A stretch of 64,000 nt of DNA from an uncultured Acidobacteriota bacterium (GCA_963789185.1 CAWBJU010000020.1:47304-111303), one strand, 5' to 3'. Positions 37,325-49,206 are shown, counted from the stretch's first letter. Notes: a model not told the origin generated them from the letters alone. Made by a program: numbers and translations.

Positions 37325-37348
37325 GTTAATATCCCGTTTCGAGAGTCG

Positions 37349-38103: not shown

Positions 38104-39408
38104 ATGCGCATCGTAATCAACACTTTTGGATCGTTCGGCGATCTTCATCCCTACATGGCGCTTGCCGGGGAGCTGCGCGCGCGGGGGCATGTTCCGGTCA
38201 TAGCGACAATGGAGTTATACCGCGAGGGGATCGAATACGCGGGTTTCCAGTTCGCACCCGTGCGGCCGAACATACCTCCGCCAAAAGAGCAGGACGAGGA
38301 ACTGATCGCGAAGATCATGGAACCCCGAACCGGTCCGCAGTTTCTGATGGAACAGATCGTGTATCCCGCTGTTCGTGGTGCTTACGAGGATTTGCTGATT
38401 GCAATCGATGGCGCCGACCTGTTGATAACTCATCCGGCAGCGCCGGCTGGTCCGCTCGTTGGTCGAAAGACGGGCATGCCGTGGATCTCGACCGTACTCG
38501 CGCCGCTCTCGTTTTTCTCCGTCTACGATCCGCCAATTCCTCCGGTTATGCAGTGGACCACAAAAGTGTTCAGCCTGCTCGGGCCGCGGTTCCTGAAGTT
38601 GTTTTTCGACGTAATGAAGAGCGAATACAAAGCGAAGCCCGTAGCTGAGTTTCGTGAAGAGCTTGGTCTGAGCGACTATGGCAATCCGATGTTTGAGGGA
38701 CAACACTCGCCGCTTCGAGTGTTGGCGATGTTCTCGAAGATCTTCGCCGCCCCGCAACCTGACTGGCCGCCACAAGCCGAGGTCACGGGCTTCTGTTTCT
38801 ACCATGACAGTCACGAAGCGACATTCCCGCCGGAGCTGTCGGACTTTCTCGACAACGGCCCGCCGCCGATCGTTTTCACGCTCGGATCTTCGGCAGTGTG
38901 GGTCGGGCGCGAGTTCTACCGCGAAAGCATCGAGGCCGCGAAGCAGTTGGGCCAACGTGCGGTCTTGCTGATTGGTGACGAACGCAATCATCCCGGCGGT
39001 AAGCTGCCGGACGGCATAATCGCCGCCGACTATGTTGCTTATCAATCGCTCATGCCGCGCGCGAGTGTTGTCATTCATCACGGCGGCGTCGGCACAACGT
39101 CACATGGCTTACTGGCAGGAGTGCCGACGTTGATCGTTCCGTTCGCGTTCGATCAATCAGACAATGCTGCGCATGCGGAGCGTCTCGATGTGAGTCGTAC
39201 TGTTTACCGGAACAAGTATCGTTTGCCGCGTGTCGCGAAGGAGTTGCACAAGCTGTTACGCGATCCGTCGTACGCGCAGAGAGCATGCGAGGTGAGCGCG
39301 CAGTTGAAACAGGAAAACGGGCCTGCGCGTGCAGCGGATCTGATCGAGCAAGTGCTGGACGGCTCACCAAACAGGATCGAGGAGCTCGCATATGCTTCTG
39401 GCGATTGA
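38104..39408 (+). CDS. GT1-family glycosyltransferase (MGT / UDP-glycosyltransferase-like)
   Basis: MRIVINTFGSFGDLHPYMALAGELRARGH and HHGGVGTTSHGLLAGVPTLIVPFAFDQSDNA. Confidence 0.85.
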   Translation: MRIVINTFGSFGDLHPYMALAGELRARGHVPVIATMELYREGIEYAGFQFAPVRPNIPPPKEQDEELIAKIMEPRTGPQFLMEQIVYPAVRGAYEDLLIAIDGADLLITHPAAPAGPLVGRKTGMPWISTVLAPLSFFSVYDPPIPPVMQWTTKVFSLLGPRFLKLFFDVMKSEYKAKPVAEFREELGLSDYGNPMFEGQHSPLRVLAMFSKIFAAPQPDWPPQAEVTGFCFYHDSHEATFPPELSDFLDNGPPPIVFTLGSSAVWVGREFYRESIEAAKQLGQRAVLLIGDERNHPGGKLPDGIIAADYVAYQSLMPRASVVIHHGGVGTTSHGLLAGVPTLIVPFAFDQSDNAAHAERLDVSRTVYRNKYRLPRVAKELHKLLRDPSYAQRACEVSAQLKQENGPARAADLIEQVLDGSPNRIEELAYASGD

Positions 39409-40154
39409 CGCGGGTAACACGCATATCAAGGTGGGCGTCTATCAAGGGCCGCAATTGCTGGCGAAGTGGCGAATGATTCCGGAGAACTTCGGCCCGTTGG
39501 ACGAGTATGGGACAGAGGTGGTACGCCTGTTTGATCGCTCGGGCCTCGACGCCAAAAAAGTCGAAGCAATCATCGTCGCGAGCGTCGTTCCGCGACTGAA
39601 CCCCGGGCTGCAACTGATGTCGGATCGTTATTTTCAGTTGACGCCGAGCTTTGTCGATCACACCACCAACACAGGCTTGAAGTTACTTTACGATCAGCCT
39701 TCAGAGCTCGGCGCGGACAGAATCGTCTCCGCAGTTGCTGCGGTTGAGAAATATGGTGTGCCTTGTATAGTCATCGACTTTGGAACGGCGACGACATTCA
39801 ACGTAGTCAATTCGCAGCGCGAGTTTCTCGGCGGCATCATTGCGCCGGGGATCATGACCGCTGCCGAAGCGCTGTTTTCTCGCGCCGCAAAACTTCCGCG
39901 TGTTCTGATCGAGCGTCCGGAGAAACTCATCGGTACGTCAACCGTCGAAGCGATGCAATCGGGGCTGTTTTATGGTTATACGAGTCTGGTTGATGGTCTG
40001 ATCAGGCGTCTGATGGCCCAAGATATGAGCGCGGCTACGGTGGTCGCCACCGGTGGTCTTGCTCATCTCATGCAAGGTGCTTCGGAGTCATGCGTACCAA
40101 ATCGACGAAAACCTGACACTCGACGGCTTACGAATCATTCACGAAAGAGCTTGA
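39392..40154 (+). CDS. coaX: Type III pantothenate kinase CoaX with an apparent frameshift about 20 codons before its end
   Basis: LLAIDAGNTHIKVGVY, GADRIVSAVAA, IDFGTATTFN, VVATGGLAHL. The family C-terminus YQIDENLTLDGLRIIHERA-stop (40095-40154) is in a different frame from the N-terminal part. The ORF track instead shows a 482-aa fusion with the next gene. Confidence 0.8.
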
Positions 40155-40840
40155 ACTACTTCAACTATTTCACCGAGATTGAGGACGCATTCGTCAGGCG
40201 ACGCGCTAAGCATCTCTTTCTCAGCCCGTTGGACTGGGCGCTGATGGAAACCTGGAAGCAGCAGGGAATTCCGTTGCACATCGTGTTGCGTGGGATTGAA
40301 CGATCGTTTGATTCGTATGAGTCGCGGCCGCGCAAGCGATCGGTGAAGACGCTGCTTTACTGTCAGGAAGAAGTCGAAGCGCAATACGCTGAATGGCTCG
40401 AGTCGCGCGTCGGCGCTTCAGAGCAGACGGACGCGCCTGACTCAAACGAAACTAAATTTTCCGCGACCGCAATCAGTGAACACTTACAACGCTGCCATAG
40501 CGAGCTGATTCGCTTATCGCAGTCCAGAAAACAAGATGATCTATCGGAGGCACTCACGCGGGCTGCCGCTCTGTTACAGGAAATTCAGGAAGATACGGTT
40601 CTCGACACGCGCCGGCTCGAAGACTCACTCACCGGCCTTGAGCGAATGCTGACCGACGCGATTCTCAAAGTGATCACCACCGCGGATCTCGACGCACTGA
40701 AGAGTGGCGTTAAAGATCAGCTCAAACCGTATCGCAGCCAGATGGAAACTGCCGTTTACAATCAAACCTTCGATAACCTTCTGCTAAAGCGTTTGCGGGA
40801 GCAATTTGCGGTGCCGCGACTCAGCCTGTTTTACGTTTAG
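40151..40840 (+). CDS. Hypothetical protein (helical), in frame with the frameshifted coaX
   Basis: A TTG at 40151 overlaps the coaX TGA (TTGA). Sequence NYFNYFTEIEDAFVRRRAKHLFLSPLDWALMETWKQQGIPLHIVLRGIE...; no family recognised. Confidence 0.5.
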   Translation: MNYFNYFTEIEDAFVRRRAKHLFLSPLDWALMETWKQQGIPLHIVLRGIERSFDSYESRPRKRSVKTLLYCQEEVEAQYAEWLESRVGASEQTDAPDSNETKFSATAISEHLQRCHSELIRLSQSRKQDDLSEALTRAAALLQEIQEDTVLDTRRLEDSLTGLERMLTDAILKVITTADLDALKSGVKDQLKPYRSQMETAVYNQTFDNLLLKRLREQFAVPRLSLFYV

Positions 40841-40848
40841 AAAGATCT

Positions 40849-42025
40849 GTGTTATGCGTGTTTCCGATCATGGAAATACGTATTGAGCGGATTCTGCCGG
40901 GCGGCGTCGGCTTGGCCCATGCAGAGGGTAAGACGGTCTTAGTTTCACTTGCTGCGCCTGGAGATCATCTACGCGTGCAGGTTGAACGCGAGCAGGGGAG
41001 CGTTCTGTTTGCATCCGTGGTTGAGGTCCTCACGCCGTCGCCGGTCCGCGTTGAGCCGCCGTGTCCGTACTTTGGCCGCTGCGGCGGTTGCGACTTTCAA
41101 CAACTCACATACGAAGCACAACTCGCCGCGAAAGCCGGCATCATCTCAGATTGTTTGCAACGCATCGCGCGGCTGGACGAGGTGCCGGAGATTACCGTGC
41201 ATCCGTCTCCGAATAACTGGCGCTATCGAGTGCGGGCGACGTGGCAGATCGATCAGGAGAAGAGCGAGATCGGCTATTACGAGCGTGGTTCCCGACGTGT
41301 TTGCGACGTTGTGGATTGTGCGGTGCTGATGCCGGAGTTGCAGGAAACACTCGAACGAGTGCGAGCGACGGATTGGGAAGAGTTTCCGCCGGATCTCAAG
41401 CATCTCGATGCGGTTACGGGCGAGAATGGGGTTTCGTTATCGCCGCCGTTGGGCGAGTTTGAGACGAACGAGCTGAGCATGCGAGTTGGGAACGAAGTTT
41501 ATCAGTACAACGCCGAGTCGTTCTTTCAGATCAATCCCGCGCTGTTGCCGGACTTGCTTGAGTTTGCGTTGAGCGAGGCCGGTGGTGAGACTGCGTTGGA
41601 TCTTTACTGCGGAGTTGGACTTTTCACACTGCCGCTCGCGAGACGTTTTGAAAAGGTGGTGGCAGTAGAAGCAAATGCGGTCGCCACACGGTTCGCGCGC
41701 CGAAATTTGGACCAGGCAGGGTTGACGAATGCGCGCGTGTTGACGGCGACCGTCGCGGGTTGGATCCGATCGTATTCGAATGGCGAGGTCTGATTTTGTC
41801 CTTCTTGATCCACCGCGAGCCGGTGCTGAGTCCGTCGTGATCAAAGGGATAGTTGATCTACAGCCAAAACGTATTTCCTACGTTTCCTGCGATCCAGCAA
41901 CGCTCGCTCGCGATCTGAAGAAACTAATCGCTGGTGGTTACACGATTGATTCAATAGCCGGGTTCGATCTGTTTCCGCAAACTCATCATGTGGAGACAGT
42001 GGTCCTGTTGCGATCGTTACGGTAG
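40849..42025 (+). CDS. rlmD: RlmD/TrmA-family RNA (uracil-C5)-methyltransferase, split by a frameshift near 41783-41793
   Basis: TRAM-like N-terminus, Fe-S motif CPYFGRCGGCDFQQL, SAM motif LDLYCGVGLFTLPLA (ORF 40849-41793). LLDPPRAG, YVSCDPATLARD and FDLFPQTHHVE follow in the next frame (ORF 41780-42025). Confidence 0.8.
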
Positions 42026-45000
42026 TTCTGAACAAGTCTTCCGGTATGCTCCGAGATTACTAGCGACGTGCGTGTTCCACTCGTCGATAGTCAGGTTGCG
42101 TATCAGCCGCGAGCACGCCTCGTATCGGAGGTTGTCTGTTACCGGCTCTCGCAGTTTGAAGACGTTGATGAAATTATCCGCGCCAGTCGTAACTACGAAA
42201 TTCGGATTGCCGAAAACGAAACGCCGTGGACGCGACTTGTAAATGAGGGATTCGACTTCTGTAAAGGAAGAGCCATTGTACTCCCAGATTCGTGAAACGT
42301 TGTCCCCGGGGGCGATGAAATATTTGCCATCCTCACTTTCAAGAATCGGGCTATTGACGTCATATTGAATGCCCGTGTCTTTCGTGTCGGAGACAATGTC
42401 CCACACGAGAATACTTCCGTCCGAGGCTGCTACTAGAAACTTACTGTCAGCGGAGAACCATATTGGATACGGTCCTTTGGCGCTCTGATAACGCCTGATC
42501 GGTGTCGCAGTCTCAACATCCCAAAGTTTTAAATCCCCACTACTTCCCAATGCGGTTGTCGCGAGGTAGCGGCCATTGTGGCTAAGGGCAATCCAAAACT
42601 GATTTGGGTTGTCAACGTTTATTTTTATCGAATAAGACAACCGTGCCGAACGGGAGATATTTCGCAGGACGTGGACACTGGAACTGCCATCCGTTACTGC
42701 AAGGTGCTGGCTGTCGCCACTAAAGCGCATGAGATTTACGGGCGCGGTGGAAGTGAACTCTAACGGTGACGCGCGTCTGTCACTATCTCTGAGATTCGTT
42801 AAAAGCAAACGATTGCCGCTGGCAGTCGCGAAGTATGTCCCATCGGGACTAAAGGCCATCCAGCGGAGCGGATTATTGCTCTGTTGACCCATGAGAACTT
42901 TCCCGGTAGTCGCTTCGCGCACCTCCACTACACTGCCAGATCCTTGAATTACCGAATCAGCCAGATACCTCGCATCGGTACTGGGTAGGAATGTACGTGA
43001 TCCCTCGAAGGGAATGCGGATGATTGTTTCGCCCGTCGAAAGATCGTTCAGTTGCGCTGTCCCGGTATCTGGTAATAATTGGCCGGAGCCTATCGGTACT
43101 CCTGTTACGGAAAGCACCTGCGAACCACTGGGAGCGAGCGCGAGATTGAGGACATAGGTCTTGATATCGATGCTTGCGATTTTTCGTGGCAGACGGGCGA
43201 GATTGGTTTTGAGAAGAGACTCAGCTTTTGCGTTGGCTGCGACCTGTTGAGCTTCGACGGCGAGCAATAGCCCTAGTTGAAACTGGTCCGGCGATAGTTG
43301 CGATGCTGTCGTCGCCGAGGCGATCTGTGTTTCGGCGATTGACGCGATGCTCTCCGCCATTCTCGTTTTATCGGAACTTTTCTTTAGGAAATAGCCACCG
43401 ACAGGCGCGACCAGTACAAGCGCAAACACAATCACATATGCCGTGATGAACAATTTAAAACTCGTTCGGATATAAGCAGCTTCGTCGGTGCTCAAGAACA
43501 TGCGATGGCTCCTGTACCATCGAGTGGCGTTCCATAACCGGCGTCCCGTCATTAGATCGAACCAGCGTCTACCGTGTTCCTTCCATTGGGCCATGCTGGA
43601 TCGCAAATCCTGTCGCCACAGCATCAGATCCCGATTCTCAACGATCCAGCGATCCAACGTGGGCCAACTTCGCAGTAGTTCCTCGTCCTTCACTTCAACT
43701 GTCGTCTCGCCGCTCTGGTCATCCTTGCTCACCGTCACCACTCCGGCATTAGCAAATTTCTGGATGACCGGATTGCTGTCCGCACTAAGCTGCTTTAGCG
43801 GTACGCGTACTTTGCTGTTCTCGATGTTTTCTCCTGGTCGAGGTATGCGAACTAGTCGCATCCACAACAGGCGAGCTTGTTCGCGTTCTTCCTCGTTGAG
43901 ACTGCGCAAAGTCGATTCGGCGCGACGTAGCGATCCCTCAAGTGGGCTCTCGGCACTCTCGTCAAATGCGGCGGTTACGGGAAAGCGGACGTTTTTCGCC
44001 GCGGCGCCACCATCGTCTGCGGCACCGGTCGCACGCGCCAATTCGGGTACGCTGGCAAAGTCCTGCAAGACAGCGTCTCTGTTTTCCGGCGAAATCAGCG
44101 GAACGAATCCTGTCACCTCCCGCTCCGTAATCTCCGTGGCGATCCGTGTGAAAGCTGCCAGACAGGTATTGGGATCTCTGGGGTCATCCTTGAATACAGC
44201 TAAAATCTCTTCGTAGGAGAAATAGGGAATGTATGGAACTGTCACTGCTCCCCAATAGGCCCGTCGGTCGAGAACCCTCTTACGGTACAGGAAAGGATCA
44301 AACTTGCGTCGAGCGTATGCGCGGCGCATTTCGAGTTTGTCCCTTTCGCTTTGGTCCACCCGCATTGGTACCGGAAAGATCTTGAATAGATGAGGGCTAA
44401 GATAGAACCAGTCGGCAACAGACTGCTCTTCCTCGCGCGGAAAGAGCAATGACGAAATAGAATACTGGTCAGAGCGCTGATCAAATACGCCTTGGGTAAT
44501 AGAGGCCGCTCCTTCAATACTCTGATTGTTCAAGGTAAAGCACACTACCAGCGTGTCGGGTAGTTGAATGGTACAAATGCCCGATGTGTCGCTTACACCG
44601 GTACGACTATCAACCAAGATGTAGTAGTATTGCGAGCGCATGTTGATTTTTAGTTGTTCGATGAACGCGCAGCCTCCTAAAACATAGTAGAACTTCTGCC
44701 AGTTAATAGCGGAGAACCGCTGGCCGTAGTCAGGTCCCTGTCGGCCCGCTGGAATAAAGTCGAGTTGGCCTCGGTCAAACTTCCAGTTAAGAGAGATCAC
44801 GTACGGATCGATATCTGTCTTAGGAAGAAACGAATCAGGCGCCAGTTTCTCGCCTTTCTCGAGCGGCGTGATGGCTTCAAGGATGAAGTCGCTAATGAGA
44901 TCCACGACACCGGGGGAGGATGTTAGTTCATGGTCAACCAGGAAGGGGCGAAAGTAGCGTTGCAAACGCGGAGCTTCGAGGTCCCAATAGACCACCAGCA

Positions 45001-45115
45001 CTCGCTTCGAATTTGAAGCGAGAATACAGGCGATGTTGGCCAAGGCCATTGAGCGGCCGGTCCCGCCTTTATATGAATAGAACGTGATGATCTTGCCCTG
45101 TTTGGCGTCGGTCAA
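42017..45115 (-). CDS. Giant ParA/MinD-like ATPase (KGGTGR variant Walker A) fused to a helical module, one TM helix and a WD40-like beta-propeller
   Basis: ITFYSYKGGTGRSMALANIA at the N-terminus. Middle TVEVKDEELLRSWPTLDRWIVENRDLMLWRQDL. TM FKLFITAYVIVFALVLVAPVGGYFL. Blades FSPDGTYFATAS, FSGDSQHLAVTDGSSSVHV, GDLKLWDV, FSADSKFLVAASDGSILVWDI, NVSRIWE. TTG start with AAGGAG 7 nt upstream. Confidence 0.8.
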   Translation of the reverse strand: MTDAKQGKIITFYSYKGGTGRSMALANIACILASNSKRVLVVYWDLEAPRLQRYFRPFLVDHELTSSPGVVDLISDFILEAITPLEKGEKLAPDSFLPKTDIDPYVISLNWKFDRGQLDFIPAGRQGPDYGQRFSAINWQKFYYVLGGCAFIEQLKINMRSQYYYILVDSRTGVSDTSGICTIQLPDTLVVCFTLNNQSIEGAASITQGVFDQRSDQYSISSLLFPREEEQSVADWFYLSPHLFKIFPVPMRVDQSERDKLEMRRAYARRKFDPFLYRKRVLDRRAYWGAVTVPYIPYFSYEEILAVFKDDPRDPNTCLAAFTRIATEITEREVTGFVPLISPENRDAVLQDFASVPELARATGAADDGGAAAKNVRFPVTAAFDESAESPLEGSLRRAESTLRSLNEEEREQARLLWMRLVRIPRPGENIENSKVRVPLKQLSADSNPVIQKFANAGVVTVSKDDQSGETTVEVKDEELLRSWPTLDRWIVENRDLMLWRQDLRSSMAQWKEHGRRWFDLMTGRRLWNATRWYRSHRMFLSTDEAAYIRTSFKLFITAYVIVFALVLVAPVGGYFLKKSSDKTRMAESIASIAETQIASATTASQLSPDQFQLGLLLAVEAQQVAANAKAESLLKTNLARLPRKIASIDIKTYVLNLALAPSGSQVLSVTGVPIGSGQLLPDTGTAQLNDLSTGETIIRIPFEGSRTFLPSTDARYLADSVIQGSGSVVEVREATTGKVLMGQQSNNPLRWMAFSPDGTYFATASGNRLLLTNLRDSDRRASPLEFTSTAPVNLMRFSGDSQHLAVTDGSSSVHVLRNISRSARLSYSIKINVDNPNQFWIALSHNGRYLATTALGSSGDLKLWDVETATPIRRYQSAKGPYPIWFSADSKFLVAASDGSILVWDIVSDTKDTGIQYDVNSPILESEDGKYFIAPGDNVSRIWEYNGSSFTEVESLIYKSRPRRFVFGNPNFVVTTGADNFINVFKLREPVTDNLRYEACSRLIRNLTIDEWNTHVASNLGAYRKTCSELP

Positions 45116-46430
45116 GAGGGAGCTCCTTCAGTAGACTTGTGTGCCATGATGGGTCTGGTTATTTCAGTTTCAATCCGCCGCGGTATGGTGTCCTTTGTCG
45201 CCTTCTCCATCACGCCCTTACCCACCTGAGTCTGGAGTTGTTTGAGGGCGTCTTTGAGCCGATCTTCCAAGTCACGCCTGGATTCGATCGAATCGTAAAA
45301 GAAAGGCAAACCAGCCTTACCAAACATAGACCAACGTCGAAATATATTGTTGCGCACAAAGTCGAGTAACACGTCACGCCTTGCGAAGGTCTGTGGATCG
45401 CTGTTGTTAAGTGGAATGATGACGCTGCAATTGAAGTAGTTGTTGCGGTCAAAGGCTTGCAAGAATCTGCTGATAGGTGGGTAGCTCTGCGGTCCAACAA
45501 TCGACGAATAGCACAACAAGACTACCATCGTCTTCAGCGTCACGGACTTCTTTGGCTAAAGTTGGACCGAACGGCAGTTCATCGCTAAAAATGCCGACAT
45601 CAAGCGCACTCTTTTGGGCTACCAACATAATTGCAGTCGGATCCTCGTCGTAATATGGTTTCCATTCCGGGCCACCGATCTTAATGTAATACTCTGGCGC
45701 GCGTACCCTGCCGGAAACTCGGTGGGATTGCCGGCTACGAACACAAATCGAACATACTGTGGACCTCTGAGACGCGCGGATGGAACAGGCAGCGGCGCTG
45801 GTACACGGCCGTCGTCAGGATGGAAAGCACTGTCGATCTGTTCCAAAGTGGTGAAATTCGACAGCGGCGGTAAGTTGAAATTACGGGCGGCGAGAATCTC
45901 CCTCTTAAGGCTCTCCATGAAGGGTTCATAACTATCTGCGTACGAGTTGTAACGCTTCCCCATCTGCTTCAGTCCAATTTTGTTATGGTTAGCTTAAGGA
46001 TAGCCTATGTAATACTGCCAGCGGCTAATAGCGTAGGGCGCAGTCTGGCTGTCCCCAAGAGGAATACAAATGACGGGTTTGATTACAGGTGGATAGTTGA
46101 CATCTTGTCAGTTTGCCAGAGCGTTGTTGACGTATAACTCCTGGCGCGGCAGAAAACCTCCCATTCTTTTCCGCAATAAGTGCTATTAAAGTAAGCCGGT
46201 GAGTACATGCTGACTATTACAGGACATGTTTGTAGCGAGTCGTTGAGTTCCGCCTCCCAATCGCCGCAGAGTTTGATTTCAGGCTGATCAAAAAAACCTA
46301 CGGCTTCATTTGCATCGAGACCCAACTGGTCGCGAATCCGTTGGGAAAGATCCTCAAAGAATTGATTAAGGTAGTTGTCATTAGCGTTAGCTCTTGCATA
46401 GCTAAAGAAAAATAGGTGGGGCATATTCAA
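45112..46430 (-). pseudogene. Decayed TIR-like gene (FxsC-like architecture)
   Basis: The N-terminal piece (46083-46430) reads HLFFFSYARANANDNYLNQFFEDL...GFFDQPEIKLCGDWEAEL...VSMYSPAYFNSTYCGKEWEVF, which is TIR-like. The reading frame then changes near 46150. It carries an in-frame TGA (46108-46110) and TAA (45994-45996), shifts again near 45708 and near 45460, and ends at 45112 in a TTGA overlap with the ATPase gene. Confidence 0.7.
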
Positions 46431-46632
46431 AAAGCCTCCAGACTAATGCACCGCGGAAGGTGGAGCTGAGTCATAAGGCATGCCCGAGAGCGGTGTTTTG
46501 AGGTAGCGAAAGCGTAGAATGAGCTTTCAGGCTTGTCAACTAAATAACTCTAATAGTTGTTGAGTTGGTTTTTGTGAAAGTATCATGTAGTATGACGAAA
46601 AAGTAGTTTAAGTTTTTAGTTGGGTAGAATTG

Positions 46633-49206
46633 ATGGAGATAATTAACTACGAAATGAATCCTCACAGAGACCTCTTCAGCCAGTATCCGCTTGTTCAAAT
46701 TGCAATTCCGTTTTGTGTAGGTGTTTGTGCGGTGGAGTATGGGTCACCGGTGCGAGCCGTGTATTTGGTGGTCGCGGGTGTGAGCTGTTCGATCGCGGCG
46801 GTCGTTGCAGTTTGGAAGAACTGGTTGACAGTGGCTGGGTGTGCGTTGCTTGCGGCAATGTTTCTTGTTGGTGCGCTGCTGGCGACTCAGGAGCGAAAGC
46901 CTCAGGTCATCCCCGGTGGTCAGACATTGGTGCTAACCGGTGTGTTGGATGCGCCGCCCGAATATGCGCGTGATCGCGTTTACTTGAGCTTAAAAGTAGA
47001 AGACGGATCGGTGCTTCTGATTGCCGAGAGTGCGCCAGTAGACCTTCGTTACGGATCACGGATTCGAGTTACGGCGAAGCTCAGGCGCACCGACAACTAT
47101 CGAAATCCCGGCGTGTCGCCGCTTTCTGAGTATCTGGAACGCAAGGGGTATGTTGCGACTGGAGTGATCAAAGGCGCGATTGAGAGGCTCGGTGATACGT
47201 CGGTCTTTCCACCACTCGCATGGCTCTACGAATGGCGAGAACGATTGCAGCGTGAGATCGATTCGCGATTCTCGCCCGACACTGCCGGCGTGCTCGACGC
47301 TGCGCTCCTCGGCAATCGACACAACCTCAGTCCCTCGACCTCGGAACGTTTTCGCGAAGGCGGCACGTTTCATGTACTCGTAATCAGCGGACTGCACATC
47401 AGTTTCATCGGCGGAATTGTTCTGTTAGCGGTGCGCCGGCTCACGAAGCGACGCTTGCTCCAGTTTGTAATTCCCGCCGGCCTTGTTTGGTGTTACTCGT
47501 TGGCGGTCGGAGCAGAGGCGTCGGTGGTGCGGGCGGCGCTGATGTTTACATTCGCTGGACTCGGCGGCGTTCTGTTTCGCCCCGCCACGTCGCTGAATGC
47601 ACTGGGTGGTGCCGCGCTCATTCTTCTGGTCCAAAGACCGAAAGAGATCTTTGATCCATCGTTTCAGTTAACTTTTCTTTCGGTTCTTGCGATCGTCGTG
47701 ATCGCCTGGCCGCTGCTGCGAAAGTTTTCCGCTATCGGTGCGTGGTACCCACGCAGCGAAACACCTTACCCGCCGAACTGCTCGCGCTCGCTCAAGGCGT
47801 TTTGCGAGACATTGTTCTGGACCGAAGGCACGTGGAAGCGGGAGATGGCGCGGTCGACGCATCACTATCGACTCTTCAAGGTCCCGCTTGCGGCAGCGTT
47901 GGAGCGTTACAAGATCCAATGGTGTTTGAGATACGTGTTCGGCGCAATCATTGTCTCGGCTGCTGTTCAGATCGTTTTGCTGCCGCAGATGATCGTCTAT
48001 TTCCACCGGCTGTCATTGTCGTCGCTGTTGCTGAATATTGTCGTCAGCGTGTTGCTCGCGTTATTGGCGGCGGTGGCGCTCGTGGCGTTGCTGCTGGCAC
48101 AACTTAGTGCGCCGATTGCGATGCCGTTGCTAAAGCTCGCAGAAGCGATCAACTGGCTGATGGTCCACAGTGTCGATCCGTTTGCAGATGCTGGTATCGC
48201 TTCGTTACGGTTGCCGGAGTACTCAGGTTGGTTTCGCATCGTTTACGTCTTGTATTACGTGCCGTTGCTGGTGCTCGTCATCGCGCTTCATCGCTGGGAG
48301 CCTTTGTCGCGATTCACAAGAAAGACACGGATCATGCCGCTCACGATGATCCAAGTGGTGCTGGTTGTGATTGTGATCTTTCATCCGTTCAGCGCCAGGC
48401 ACGCGGATGCACAGCTTCAAATTGATTTCCTCGATGTGGGCCAGGGTGACTCTGCGCTAATCACTATGCCCAATGGAACAACGTTGATCATCGATGGTGG
48501 TGGACGACCAAAGTTTGGATCCGAGAGGGAAACACGAAGCATCGGAGAGTCTGTCGTTTCGGAGTATTTGTGGTGGCGAGGATTAAATCGAGTTGATTAC
48601 GTACTCGCCACGCACGCCGATGCAGATCACATCGATGGACTCAACGACATCGTGCGCAACTTTGGCGTCAATACGGCTCTGGTTGGACGAGCACCGGCAA
48701 ACGATCCGGAGTTCGCGCAGTTTGCCCGCTCTCTGATCAATACAAACTTGCAAATCGTGCAATCAGGAGACGTGATCCGTTTCGGCGAAGTCGAGTTGCG
48801 AGTCTTGTGGCCGCCGCCGGGAACCGAATCAACGAACGACGACTCGGTAGTGTTGAAGCTACAGTTTCGCGAGCGCTCGATCTTGTTGACGGGTGATATT
48901 GAGAAAAAAGCTGAACGATCGCTCATCACGCCGGAGCTAAAGGCGGACGTCGTAAAAGTCGCGCATCACGGAAGCAAGACGTCCTCGACCGACGCGTTCG
49001 TCTCAGCAACGAACCCCCGCCTCGCAATCATCTCTGTCGGACAGGATTCAATGTTTGGGCATCCGCATGCGGAAGTTGTCGAACGTTGGAAGCAAGCCGG
49101 CGCGGAGGTGTTAACAACCGGCAAATGCGGAATGATCACTGTGAAAACTGACGGCACAAACTTGTCGGTTCACGAATTTGTCCCCCCGTGTGCGAGTCAA
49201 AACTGA
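46633..49206 (+). CDS. comEC: DNA internalisation competence protein ComEC/Rec2
   Basis: Multi-TM competence domain plus a metallo-beta-lactamase domain: IDFLDVGQGDSALI, ATHADADHIDGL, VAHHGSKTSS. Confidence 0.9.
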   Translation: MEIINYEMNPHRDLFSQYPLVQIAIPFCVGVCAVEYGSPVRAVYLVVAGVSCSIAAVVAVWKNWLTVAGCALLAAMFLVGALLATQERKPQVIPGGQTLVLTGVLDAPPEYARDRVYLSLKVEDGSVLLIAESAPVDLRYGSRIRVTAKLRRTDNYRNPGVSPLSEYLERKGYVATGVIKGAIERLGDTSVFPPLAWLYEWRERLQREIDSRFSPDTAGVLDAALLGNRHNLSPSTSERFREGGTFHVLVISGLHISFIGGIVLLAVRRLTKRRLLQFVIPAGLVWCYSLAVGAEASVVRAALMFTFAGLGGVLFRPATSLNALGGAALILLVQRPKEIFDPSFQLTFLSVLAIVVIAWPLLRKFSAIGAWYPRSETPYPPNCSRSLKAFCETLFWTEGTWKREMARSTHHYRLFKVPLAAALERYKIQWCLRYVFGAIIVSAAVQIVLLPQMIVYFHRLSLSSLLLNIVVSVLLALLAAVALVALLLAQLSAPIAMPLLKLAEAINWLMVHSVDPFADAGIASLRLPEYSGWFRIVYVLYYVPLLVLVIALHRWEPLSRFTRKTRIMPLTMIQVVLVVIVIFHPFSARHADAQLQIDFLDVGQGDSALITMPNGTTLIIDGGGRPKFGSERETRSIGESVVSEYLWWRGLNRVDYVLATHADADHIDGLNDIVRNFGVNTALVGRAPANDPEFAQFARSLINTNLQIVQSGDVIRFGEVELRVLWPPPGTESTNDDSVVLKLQFRERSILLTGDIEKKAERSLITPELKADVVKVAHHGSKTSSTDAFVSATNPRLAIISVGQDSMFGHPHAEVVERWKQAGAEVLTTGKCGMITVKTDGTNLSVHEFVPPCASQN

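What the first reader, a model, noticed from the sequence alone, without database searches (positions are those of the whole stretch)
42017..46630. Lower-GC island carrying a TIR-like / variant ParA-like ATPase-WD40 two-gene module (conflict-system-like)
Seen: my hand counts on sample lines give roughly 48-53 % GC in 42.0-46.4 kb, against roughly 63-67 % in the flanking rlmD and comEC genes. The spacer 46431-46630 is extremely AT-rich. The block contains a TIR-like gene (now decayed) whose stop overlaps the start (TTGA) of a 1032-aa ATPase-helical-TM-WD40 gene. The end of that gene overlaps the rlmD end by 9 nt.
Established knowledge: TIR domains are NAD-consuming or signalling effectors in many antiphage systems. 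NTPase-plus-WD40/TPR proteins are typical sensors of such systems. From memory, public annotation names a 'TIR-like protein FxsC' and a 'KGGVGR-motif variant AAA ATPase' that tend to be neighbours, with no assigned function.
Inference: this is a horizontally acquired sensor/effector module of that uncharacterised type, here with the effector gene inactivated.
Basis: partly seen in the sequence, partly recalled or inferred. Interest (0 to 1): 0.7.

Follow-up and report, generated by a model that had tools for sequence, protein, structure and literature searches.

The report
FxsC-type TIR/ATPase cassette, burst-mutated copy
The segment is a real two-gene cassette of a widespread but untested family (a TIR-like enzyme plus a membrane-anchored ParA-like ATPase with a WD40 sensor), but it is an old resident of this chromosomal site rather than a recent import, and most of its apparent gene decay is a one-strand burst of G-to-T changes seen only in this assembly.

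Summary
The gene calls are right. 42017-45115(-) encodes a KGGVGR-motif ParA/MinD-like ATPase, then an nSTAND1-type helical module, one TM helix and a WD40 propeller. 45112-46424(-) is a broken FxsC-type TIR-like gene. The pairing is near-universal: 81 of 82 relatives' loci carry an intact FxsC-like gene directly upstream.

The GC dip is real but small (50.9% against 55-56%, not 63-67%). Relatives' cassettes show a similar dip.

Horizontal acquisition is not supported. Six more distant relatives' contigs carry the cassette; the five whose contigs reach a flank have comEC and/or rlmD beside it. Five ~92%-identical relatives lack exactly 42013-46651. No mobility marks were found.

The decay is mostly not evolutionary. 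A 99%-identical contig from another assembly (L084) has no differences in 42011-44286. In 44287-46628 it differs at 59 positions, 55 of them at G on the gene strand (41 G>T, CpG-biased). These private changes make both true stops, two frameshifts and 12 replacements in the ATPase. They show no sign of selection. I judge a single-molecule damage or consensus artefact most likely (about 0.6), and a real recent hypermutation possible (about 0.35). One +G frameshift (45460) is shared with L084.

My inferred function is an outside-in membrane sensor driving a TIR NADase. This is untested.

The parts
42013..46651 (.). Presence/absence segment holding the whole cassette and its promoter spacer
   Evidence: Homology to five ~92%-identical relatives (L085-L089) ends at 42012 and resumes at 46652. 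Those relatives have 26 nt in place of the segment. Contig L084 spans essentially this segment alone.
42017..45115 (-). Gene for the 1032-aa KGGVGR-motif ParA/MinD-like ATPase, helical module, TM helix and WD40 protein (TTG start)
   Evidence: ORF. NF047398 scores 130.4 bits against a cut-off of 90. Pfam finds the nSTAND1 C-terminal part plus WD40. More than 3000 homologues were found. An AF2 model of homologue P0004 has pLDDT 86.9.
44096..45094 (-). ParA/MinD-like ATPase domain (aa 8-340). Walker A is KGGTGRS, with the P-loop Lys replaced by Arg. In this copy 12 residues are replaced, including D43Y in DWDLEAPGL.
43565..43927 (-). Helical, winged-helix-like module (aa 397-517) matching only positions 262-377 of 379 of Pfam nSTAND1
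   Evidence: The secondary structure of the homologue model agrees.
43385..43453 (-). Single predicted transmembrane helix (aa 555-577)
   Evidence: Read directly from the sequence. 105 of 117 homologues have a strong hydrophobic helix at aa ~500-630. K+R counts are 4.1 on the N-side and 2.5 on the C-side. The model shows one long helix there.
42101..43198 (-). WD40 beta-propeller (aa ~640-1005), predicted to be extracytoplasmic
   Evidence: Pfam WD40 and propeller models match. Foldseek hits are WD40 propellers. The topology is inferred; variants with PASTA domains occupy the same position.
45112..46424 (-). FxsC-type gene (TIR-like N-domain plus Rossmann-like C-domain), disrupted in this sequence
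   Evidence: Family scans. tblastn of intact relatives against the window. The repaired L084 version scores FxsC_Nterm 127.8 (cut-off 130) and FxsC_Cterm 61.2 (cut-off 55).
46083..46424 (-). TIR-like domain fragment. It retains the Glu of the YCGKEWE motif.
   Evidence: TIR_2 scores 35.1 bits against a cut-off of 28. This Glu is invariant in 35 FxsC-like proteins and at least 90% conserved in 80.
44287..46637 (-). Tract of strand-specific guanine changes relative to the near-identical contig L084. Over 44287-46628 there are 59 differences, 55 at G on the gene strand: 41 G>T, 6 G>A, 5 G>C and 2 single-G deletions. Two further differences (46637, 46639) lie in the first 19 nt of L084.
   Evidence: No comparable tract exists in 28-54 kb when compared with L085-L089.
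46151..46151 (-). Private deletion of one G, causing a frameshift in the TIR-like gene
46108..46110 (-). Private TGA stop created by a G>T change at 46110
45994..45996 (-). Private TAA stop created by G>T changes at 45997 and 45996
45709..45709 (-). Private deletion of one G, causing a second frameshift. A messy patch of differences follows at 45679-45696.
45460..45460 (-). Extra G (ATTCTT-G-CAAGCC, not in a homopolymer) shared with L084. It is the only lesion seen in two assemblies.
46425..46651 (.). Divergent spacer between the cassette and comEC. 38% of gene-strand G are changed here.
   Evidence: No sigma-70-like site was found.

Best explanation
What it is (shown). 42013-46651 is a self-contained two-gene cassette. 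Gene 1 is an FxsC-type protein with a TIR-like domain that keeps the conserved Glu, followed by a Rossmann-like domain. Gene 2 overlaps it by 4 nt, which suggests translational coupling. It encodes a ParA/MinD-like 'KGGVGR' ATPase, a helical winged-helix-like module shared with nSTAND1, one TM helix and a WD40 propeller.

History (shown). The cassette is an old resident of the rlmD/comEC site in this Pyrinomonadaceae clade. The closest sequenced relatives have lost it.

State here (difference shown, cause inferred). The promoter-proximal 2.35 kb carries a private, unselected, CpG-biased burst of changes at G on one strand. This burst creates nearly all of the 'decay'. The most likely cause is oxidised guanines on a single long-read molecule that dominated the consensus in a low-coverage, strain-variable segment. 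The alternative is a very recent real mutation cluster.

Mechanism (inferred). The ATPase and helical part are cytoplasmic and the propeller lies outside the membrane. Ligand binding outside would drive nucleotide-dependent dimerisation or oligomerisation of the ParA-like domain. That in turn would assemble and activate the TIR-like partner to consume NAD+ or make a signal, giving growth arrest.
For: Family identity.

Strict pairing: 81 of 82 loci. At least 15 FxsC hits sit on contigs whose lengths match those of ATPase hits.

Only the pair is conserved outside actinobacteria, and the C-terminal sensor varies between WD40, TPR, PASTA and none.

Topology.

TIR fold and conserved Glu.

Ancestral site and loss in the nearest relatives.

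The burst:
- There are 0 differences in 42011-44286 against 59 in 44287-46628, and 55 of the 59 are at G.
- The 5' neighbour is C for 30 of 42 G>T changes, against a background of 31%; Fisher p = 1e-5.
- In the ATPase, 12 changes are non-synonymous and 4 synonymous. Random G>T changes would give 83% non-synonymous.
- L084 keeps the family consensus at all 12 replaced ATPase residues.

Artefact context:
- The window also has private 1-nt insertions at 37333, 40088 and 41790. These break coaX and rlmD, which are otherwise about 95% conserved.
- L089, which carries the same 'contig_N' naming as L084, has private insertions too.
Against: - No reads are available, so coverage and strand support in the tract are unknown.
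- The left half of the segment is error-free although it is equally strain-variable.
- G hit density is highest next to the likely promoter, which would also fit transcription-linked damage in vivo.
- I could not establish the sequencing platform of the window.
- No member of the family has been tested, so the function is inferred.
- PADLOC models match only the P-loop.
- The locus has been syntenically stable for a long time and sits among housekeeping genes, which is unusual for defence systems.
- P-loop Lys-to-Arg proteins have been predicted to be inactive (PMC7159879).
Confidence: 0.6

Rival explanations
1. This is a recently acquired genomic island carrying a sensor/effector pair, and the effector has decayed by ordinary pseudogenisation while the sensor is kept.
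For: - GC is 4-5 points below the flanks.
- The segment is present or absent among ~92%-identical relatives.
- The family is patchy across phyla and sits in varied neighbourhoods.
- One frameshift is shared by two assemblies.
Against: - The cassette lies beside comEC and/or rlmD in five diverged relatives' contigs (both flanks seen in L001 and L092), and divergence is congruent with the flanks.
- There are no mobility genes, tRNA or repeats.
- A similar GC deficit is seen in 64 of 77 relatives' loci.
- The lesions are almost all G-specific, on one strand, private and unselected, and they hit the 'kept' ATPase equally.
- The repaired L084 gene departs from only 2 of 82 conserved columns.
Confidence: 0.1
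2. The burst is real. The gene (non-transcribed) strand of the promoter-proximal 2.3 kb was exposed as single-stranded DNA in one lineage, for example in R-loops or a repair or uptake intermediate. Its guanines were oxidised or otherwise adducted and fixed as G>T. This killed both genes very recently.
For: - The changes are strictly on one strand and at G.
- The CpG/CGG-type context fits 8-oxoG chemistry.
- The fraction of G hit falls from 38% in the spacer to 3-12% in the genes, and the tract ends abruptly.
- No such tract exists elsewhere in 26 kb of comparable sequence.
- The left half of the segment is identical between the two assemblies.
Against: - Only one assembly carries it.
- The same assembly has private single-base insertions in conserved housekeeping genes.
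- The tract stops within about 15 nt of the boundary of a strain-variable segment, as expected for a coverage drop.
- No selection has acted on the changes.
Confidence: 0.33
3. The cassette is not an immune system. It is a cell-envelope or developmental signalling module descended from the actinobacterial FxSxx-COOH peptide system, in which the TIR-like domain acts as a scaffold or nucleotide-processing enzyme.
For: - Synteny among housekeeping genes has been stable over long periods.
- PASTA-bearing variants exist.
- In Streptomyces the pair sits with the FxsB radical-SAM peptide maturase.
- No PADLOC system matches.
Against: - The Glu aligned with the catalytic Glu of TIR NADases is conserved.
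- The sensor domains are variable.
- The cassette is present or absent between close relatives.
- A SLATT protein is encoded next to the Streptomyces version.
- Related actinobacterial systems were classed as conflict systems on genomic grounds (PMC7159879).
Confidence: 0.3

Closest known systems
FxSxx-COOH (Fxs) system of actinobacteria: FxsA peptide, FxsB radical SAM/SPASM, FxsC TIR-like protein, and a KGGVGR ATPase fused to the FxSxx TPR protein (NCBIfam; discussed in PMC7159879)
   Same: The FxsC-like and KGGVGR-ATPase genes are homologous and lie in the same order and on the same strand. In Streptomyces L081, FxsC scores 236 and 221 bits and the ATPase 147 bits.
   Different: No FxsA, FxsB or SLATT genes are present here. 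The ATPase is fused to a TM helix and a WD40 propeller instead of the cytoplasmic AP-ATPase/TPR part. The FxsC scores sit at the family threshold: 127.8 against 130, and 61 against 55.
TIR-STAND receptors (bacterial TIR-NLR/Avs-type proteins, plant TNLs such as RPP1, and Apaf-1-like NTPase-WD40 proteins)
   Same: The logic is the same: a TIR effector, a nucleotide switch, a helical/winged-helix module and a repeat sensor. The best Foldseek hit for the FxsC model is RPP1 TIR-NB-ARC, with E = 4.6e-4. The nSTAND1 C-terminal module is present.
   Different: The parts are split over two proteins. The switch is a ParA/MinD-type domain with an Arg in the P-loop, not a STAND NTPase. A TM helix separates the switch from the sensor. 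The TM-score to RPP1 is low, at 0.19.
ParA/MinD/Soj deviant Walker A ATPases
   Same: The signature Lys of KGG is present, as are Walker A' (DWD) and Walker B (DSRTG) motifs. The closest solved structures by sequence are ParA, MinD and BceF.
   Different: The P-loop GK[ST] is GR[ST]. Scores fall far below the family cut-offs; for example, minD_bact scores 19.7 against 212.9. The protein is membrane-anchored and carries a sensor domain.
Single-pass receptors with an outside repeat domain and an inside signalling domain (animal Toll-like receptors; PknB-type PASTA kinases)
   Same: The predicted N-in/C-out single-pass topology is shared. Repeat or PASTA domains lie outside and a TIR-linked output lies inside.
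   Different: This is an analogy only. There is no homology of the receptor chain, the TIR is a separate polypeptide, and nothing has been tested.

Membership tests
TIR domain superfamily (Pfam TIR_2 PF13676) | Profile match above the gathering score | tested here: met
   The 46083-46430 product scores 35.1 bits against a cut-off of 28, E = 2e-8. A model of the 70%-identical P0157 matches plant and bacterial TIR structures.
TIR domain superfamily (Pfam TIR_2 PF13676) | Conserved Glu at the position of the catalytic Glu of TIR NADases | tested here: met
   YCGKEWE is present in the window. E87 is invariant in alignment A2 and at least 90% conserved in 80 loci. Its equivalence to the catalytic Glu rests on motif position and on my knowledge of TIR enzymes.
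TIR domain superfamily (Pfam TIR_2 PF13676) | NAD+ cleavage activity | not testable with these tools
   This needs an enzyme assay.
FxsC (NF040588 N-domain plus TIGR04276 C-domain) | N-domain score of at least 130 bits | tested here: inconclusive
   The window fragment scores 92.3. The repaired L084 scores 127.8, L001 scores 124.2, L083 scores 141 and Streptomyces scores 236.
FxsC (NF040588 N-domain plus TIGR04276 C-domain) | C-domain score of at least 55 bits | tested here: met
   The repaired L084 version scores 61.2. The window fragment alone scores 24.4.
FxSxx-COOH system | Linked FxsA precursor and FxsB radical SAM/SPASM maturase | tested here: not met
   The segment holds only the two genes, between rlmD and comEC. 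No third gene is conserved in 32 non-actinobacterial loci. FxsB is present in Streptomyces L081.
KGGVGR-motif variant AAA ATPase (NF047398) | Score of at least 90 bits and the KGGxGR[ST] motif | tested here: met
   The score is 130.4 bits here and 150.2 in the unmutated P0121. The motif is KGGTGRS.
KGGVGR-motif variant AAA ATPase (NF047398) | Family-invariant DWDLEAPGL and YDY motifs intact | tested here: not met
   The window has D43Y, G50R and D164Y, among 12 replacements. L084 has the consensus at all of them.
STAND NTPase (Pfam nSTAND1 PF20703) | Match to the NTPase core of the model | tested here: not met
   Only model positions 262-377 of 379 match, at aa 397-517. The N-terminal NTPase is of ParA/MinD type.
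Canonical ParA/MinD | Scores above the equivalog cut-offs and a P-loop GK[ST] | tested here: not met
   minD_bact scores 19.7 against 212.9, and the P-loop Lys is replaced by Arg.
Catalogued anti-phage systems (PADLOC-DB 2.0) | Full-length matches to the components of a system | tested here: not met
   PDC-M28B matches aa 5-73 only, and AriA scores 14 bits. PDC systems are untested candidates (10.1101/2024.01.29.577857).
Mobile genomic island | Integrase, tRNA target or terminal repeats | tested here: not met
   No tRNA occurs in the window. There are no terminal repeats. The segment holds only the two cassette genes.

The most novel reading that the evidence does not exclude
The one-strand, guanine-specific, CpG-biased burst (44287-46637) is a real in vivo event. 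It would be a kilobase-scale, strand-coordinated hypermutation confined to the promoter-proximal part of one transcription unit in a soil bacterium. It could be transcription-linked or caused by a guanine-modifying activity. It would have inactivated a TIR cassette in a single step.
Probability: 0.12. Interest if true: 0.8.

Novelty: new member of a known kind. Interest (0 to 1): 0.4.

Why it matters
1. The FxsC-like / KGGVGR-ATPase pair is a strictly coupled module. It is found in hundreds of species (593 hits among GTDB species representatives; more than 3000 proteins) across many phyla. It has no tested function and no model in defence-system finders. The predicted layout (sensor outside, TM helix, ParA-like switch inside, separate TIR enzyme) would be a new way of wiring a TIR effector. 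Cultured carriers make it testable: Caenimonas sedimenti, Azohydromonas aeria, Streptomyces and Frankia.

2. Apparent pseudogenes and AT-rich spacers in metagenome-assembled contigs can come from single-strand damage signatures confined to strain-variable, probably low-coverage segments. Comparing one independent near-identical contig exposed this.

3. A lower-GC, present/absent segment is not enough to call horizontal transfer. Here the evidence points to an ancestral locus being lost.

Tried and rejected
- Exact look-up of the window's own ATPase and of P0001 found no contig.
- Full-text searches for KGGVGR, FxsC, FxsA/B and PDC-M28 found no paper on this family. A search combining TIR with ParA/MinD-like and anti-phage terms found only unrelated TIR systems.
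- The PADLOC hit to PDC-M28B covers only the P-loop and was dropped.
- I first read the seven departures from invariant ATPase residues, and the relative-rate excess (116 against 90 unique residues), as relaxed selection. One search showed that all of them are private to this assembly.
- I first argued that the open 3.1-kb ATPase ORF implied purifying selection. I rejected this because random G>T changes give only 7% stops, so 16 hits without a stop is unremarkable.
- The metagenome scan for close relatives gave four loci at 50-61% identity and none near-identical, so it could not settle artefact against real.
- Repeat, promoter/terminator and tRNA scans of the segment and its ends gave nothing above chance.
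- Simple end-resection models do not fit the burst. Resection from a break at the right end would expose the other strand. Resection from a break at the left end predicts the opposite density gradient. This is my reasoning.
- The fold search of the ATPase model was dominated by WD40 hits and added little.

Full report
OBSERVATION

The ORFs are as described.
- A 1032-aa ORF lies at 42017-45115(-). Its TTG start overlaps the TGA of the upstream reading frame, giving TTGA at 45115-45112. Its stop overlaps the tail of rlmD by 9 nt.
- Upstream lie fragments at 46083-46430, 45619-45963 and 45112-45543.

The composition claim is only partly right.
- The window averages 55.6% GC. 42017-46630 is 50.9% GC and is the lowest 4.6-kb stretch in the window.
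- rlmD and comEC are 56.2% and 55.1% GC, not 63-67%. The spacer is 41.5% GC.

WHAT THE GENES ARE

The large protein:
- It passes NCBIfam NF047398 'KGGVGR-motif variant AAA ATPase' with 130 bits against a cut-off of 90. Canonical ParA/MinD models score far below their cut-offs.
- Pfam adds the C-terminal third of nSTAND1 (model positions 262-377 of 379, at aa 397-517) and WD40 repeats.
- Solved structures match only around the P-loop: BceF, ParA and MinD.
- An AlphaFold2 model of the 54%-identical P0004 (pLDDT 86.9) shows, in order: an ATPase domain; a disordered linker; a helical region with winged-helix-like hairpins; one long hydrophobic helix; a propeller; and two terminal helices. Foldseek returns WD40 propellers.
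- 105 of 117 homologues have one strong TM helix at aa ~500-630, with more Lys/Arg on the N-side (4.1 against 2.5).
- Sister architectures carry TPR or PASTA domains at the same position.
- I therefore infer an N-in/C-out topology with the propeller outside the membrane.

The upstream fragments:
- They hit TIR_2 (35 bits, cut-off 28), FxsC_Nterm (92 bits) and FxsC_Cterm (24 bits).
- A model of the 70%-identical intact homologue P0157 (pLDDT 83.6) has a TIR fold followed by a five-stranded Rossmann-like domain. Its best PDB hit is the TIR-NB-ARC core of RPP1, but the hit is weak (E = 4.6e-4, TM-score 0.19).
- The Glu of CGKEW is invariant.

ASSOCIATION

- A pattern scan of one genome per species found 593 relatives.
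- Among the best 80 plus two metagenome contigs, 81 of 82 loci carry a full-length FxsC-like ORF immediately upstream on the same strand. The exception, L046, has a KGGAGR ATPase with a different neighbour.
- Outside actinobacteria nothing else is conserved around the pair.
- In Streptomyces L081 the pair sits between FxsB (radical SAM/SPASM, 587 bits) and a SLATT protein. There the ATPase is fused to the FxSxx TPR protein.
- Kaur et al. described this actinobacterial arrangement computationally and called the ParA-like domain probably inactive (PMC7159879).
- I found no experimental work on the family.

ORIGIN OF THE SEGMENT

- Cluster look-ups place the window in Pyrinomonadaceae.
- Five contigs at ~92% nt identity (L085-L089) have an intact rlmD followed directly by comEC. 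Homology to the window stops at 42012 and resumes at 46652, with 26 unrelated nt in between.
- Six contigs of more distant relatives (ATPase 50-61% identical: L001, L002, L090, L091, L092, L093) carry the cassette. The five whose contigs reach a flank have comEC and/or rlmD beside it; L001 and L092 show both. L083 also carries an intact pair but has no informative flank. Five of the six also have a ~170-aa gene next to rlmD that the window lacks; L091 does not reach that side.
- Divergence of FxsC, ATPase, comEC and rlmD is broadly congruent across these relatives.
- No tRNA, integrase or terminal repeats occur.
- The cassette is below its flanks in GC in 64 of 77 relatives' loci, with a median of -2 points and -3 in L001.
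- The simplest history is ancestral residence with loss in the L085-L089 lineage, not recent import.

THE 'DECAY'

A second member of the 90% cluster, P0121 on contig L084, comes from another ENA assembly. That contig spans essentially the segment alone. P0121 is 1020/1032 identical to the window protein, and all 12 differences fall in the first 277 residues, with L084 holding the family consensus at each.

At the DNA level:
- There are no differences in 42011-44286.
- There are 59 differences in 44287-46628. 55 are at G on the gene strand: 41 G>T, 6 G>A, 5 G>C and 2 single-G deletions.

Further properties of the burst:
- G>T sites are preceded by C in 30 of 42 cases, against a background of 31%. 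CpG guanines are hit at 17.6% against 2-8% for other guanines (p = 1e-5).
- The fraction of G hit is 38% in the spacer, 11% in the 5' half of the TIR-like gene, 3-5% in the middle and 12% at 44288-44500. One more G is changed at 44287 and none beyond it.
- In the ATPase the changes are 12 non-synonymous and 4 synonymous. Random G>T changes would give 83% non-synonymous and 7% stops. They are therefore unselected, and the open ATPase ORF says nothing about constraint.
- The burst supplies both genuine stops (46110, 45996) and both private frameshifts (46151, 45709).
- Against L085-L089, no similar tract exists anywhere in 28-54 kb, including the start of comEC.

Reverting the burst raises the segment to 51.9% GC and the spacer to 48%.

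One lesion is shared by both assemblies: an extra G at 45460, which is not in a homopolymer. With it removed, the L084 protein is full length. It is 64-67% identical to intact relatives, passes FxsC_Cterm, and departs from only 2 of 82 conserved columns.

ARTEFACT OR BIOLOGY?

Evidence pointing to an artefact:
- The window has private 1-nt insertions at 37333, 40088 and 41790. The one at 40088 fuses coaX to the next gene. The one at 41790 splits rlmD, and removing it restores a protein 95% identical to L085's.
- L089 carries the same 'contig_N' naming as L084 and shows similar private insertions.
- Nanopore-only Flye/Medaka soil MAGs of this kind exist (PMC12313526). However, I could not tie the window to that project.
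- A one-strand, G-only signature with C-G context fits oxidised guanine read from a single molecule. Its stop at the edge of a strain-variable segment fits a local coverage drop.

Evidence pointing to a real event:
- The left half of the segment is flawless.
- The density peaks at the promoter-proximal end of the non-transcribed strand.

I put the artefact at about 0.6, a real recent cluster at about 0.35, and ordinary pseudogene decay at under 0.1.

MECHANISM (INFERRED)

- The 4-nt overlap and strict pairing suggest a stoichiometric complex.
- The ParA-like domain keeps the signature Lys and the Walker A' and Walker B motifs, but has Arg in the P-loop. This suggests a nucleotide-binding dimerisation switch with little turnover.
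- The variable outside domain would be the input.
- The TIR-like enzyme, with its conserved Glu, would be the output.
- TIR enzymes need ordered oligomerisation to become active, as recent TIR-like NADase work shows again (10.64898/2026.05.01.722283).
- Whether the role is anti-phage or envelope signalling is open.

VERDICT

The family assignment is right and the pairing is confirmed. The island-by-transfer and decayed-effector readings are not supported. This copy is either mis-sequenced or freshly wrecked. It is a new member of a known, annotated but uncharacterised kind.

Noticed in passing
window 41790 (rlmD, 40870-42025): A private single-base insertion splits rlmD into 307-aa and 81-aa ORFs. 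Removing it gives a protein 95% identical to the intact 383-aa rlmD of L085. A sequencing error is likely.
   Followed up: yes
window 40088 (39392-40840): A private 1-nt insertion near the end of coaX (type III pantothenate kinase, 253 aa in relatives) fuses it with the following 229-aa gene into one 482-aa ORF. Every other listed member of the cluster is at most 229 aa.
   Followed up: partly
window 37333: A private extra C in a C-run relative to four relatives. Its effect on coding was not examined.
   Followed up: no
window 46630-46654: comEC most likely starts at the ATG at 46654. Homology to relatives begins at 46652 and their comEC starts at the matching ATG. The TTG at 46630 and ATG at 46633 lie inside the cassette segment.
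   Followed up: partly
L001 11181-11711, L002 5092-5592, L090, L092, L093: A ~170-aa gene with a hydrophobic N-terminus lies between the ATPase gene and rlmD in five relatives' contigs. It is absent from the window, where the ATPase stop overlaps rlmD. It could be a third component that has been lost.
   Followed up: partly
L018 5899-8274, L021 5698-8235, L039 5839-8169, L041 5866-8963: In four loci a second FxsC-like region follows the ATPase domain. In three of them it lies in the same reading frame as the ATPase (an ATPase-FxsC fusion) and is full length. In L041 the match is partial and split over two frames. All four also have the upstream FxsC-like gene.
   Followed up: no
L046 2455-5923: This is the only surveyed locus where a KGGAGR ATPase (~480 aa) has no FxsC-like partner. 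A 662-aa ORF of unknown type follows it.
   Followed up: partly
L081 9963-10937 (Streptomyces sp. NBC_00158): A SLATT_3 plus SLATT_1 protein is encoded directly after the KGGVGR-ATPase/FxSxx-TPR gene, with a 4-nt overlap. This hints at a membrane effector in the actinobacterial version.
   Followed up: no
L089 (ENA ERZ25039504 contig_94790), matching window 48872-48929 and 33-35 kb: This related contig has its own private 1-nt insertions. They split comEC (753 + 98 aa) and a DUF1800 gene (129 + 220 + 178 aa). The contig appears error-prone for indels.
   Followed up: partly
window 41989-42010 against the end of L084: Four differences of mixed type lie within 22 nt at the rlmD-side end of contig L084. 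They could be a contig-end artefact or a different flank haplotype.
   Followed up: no
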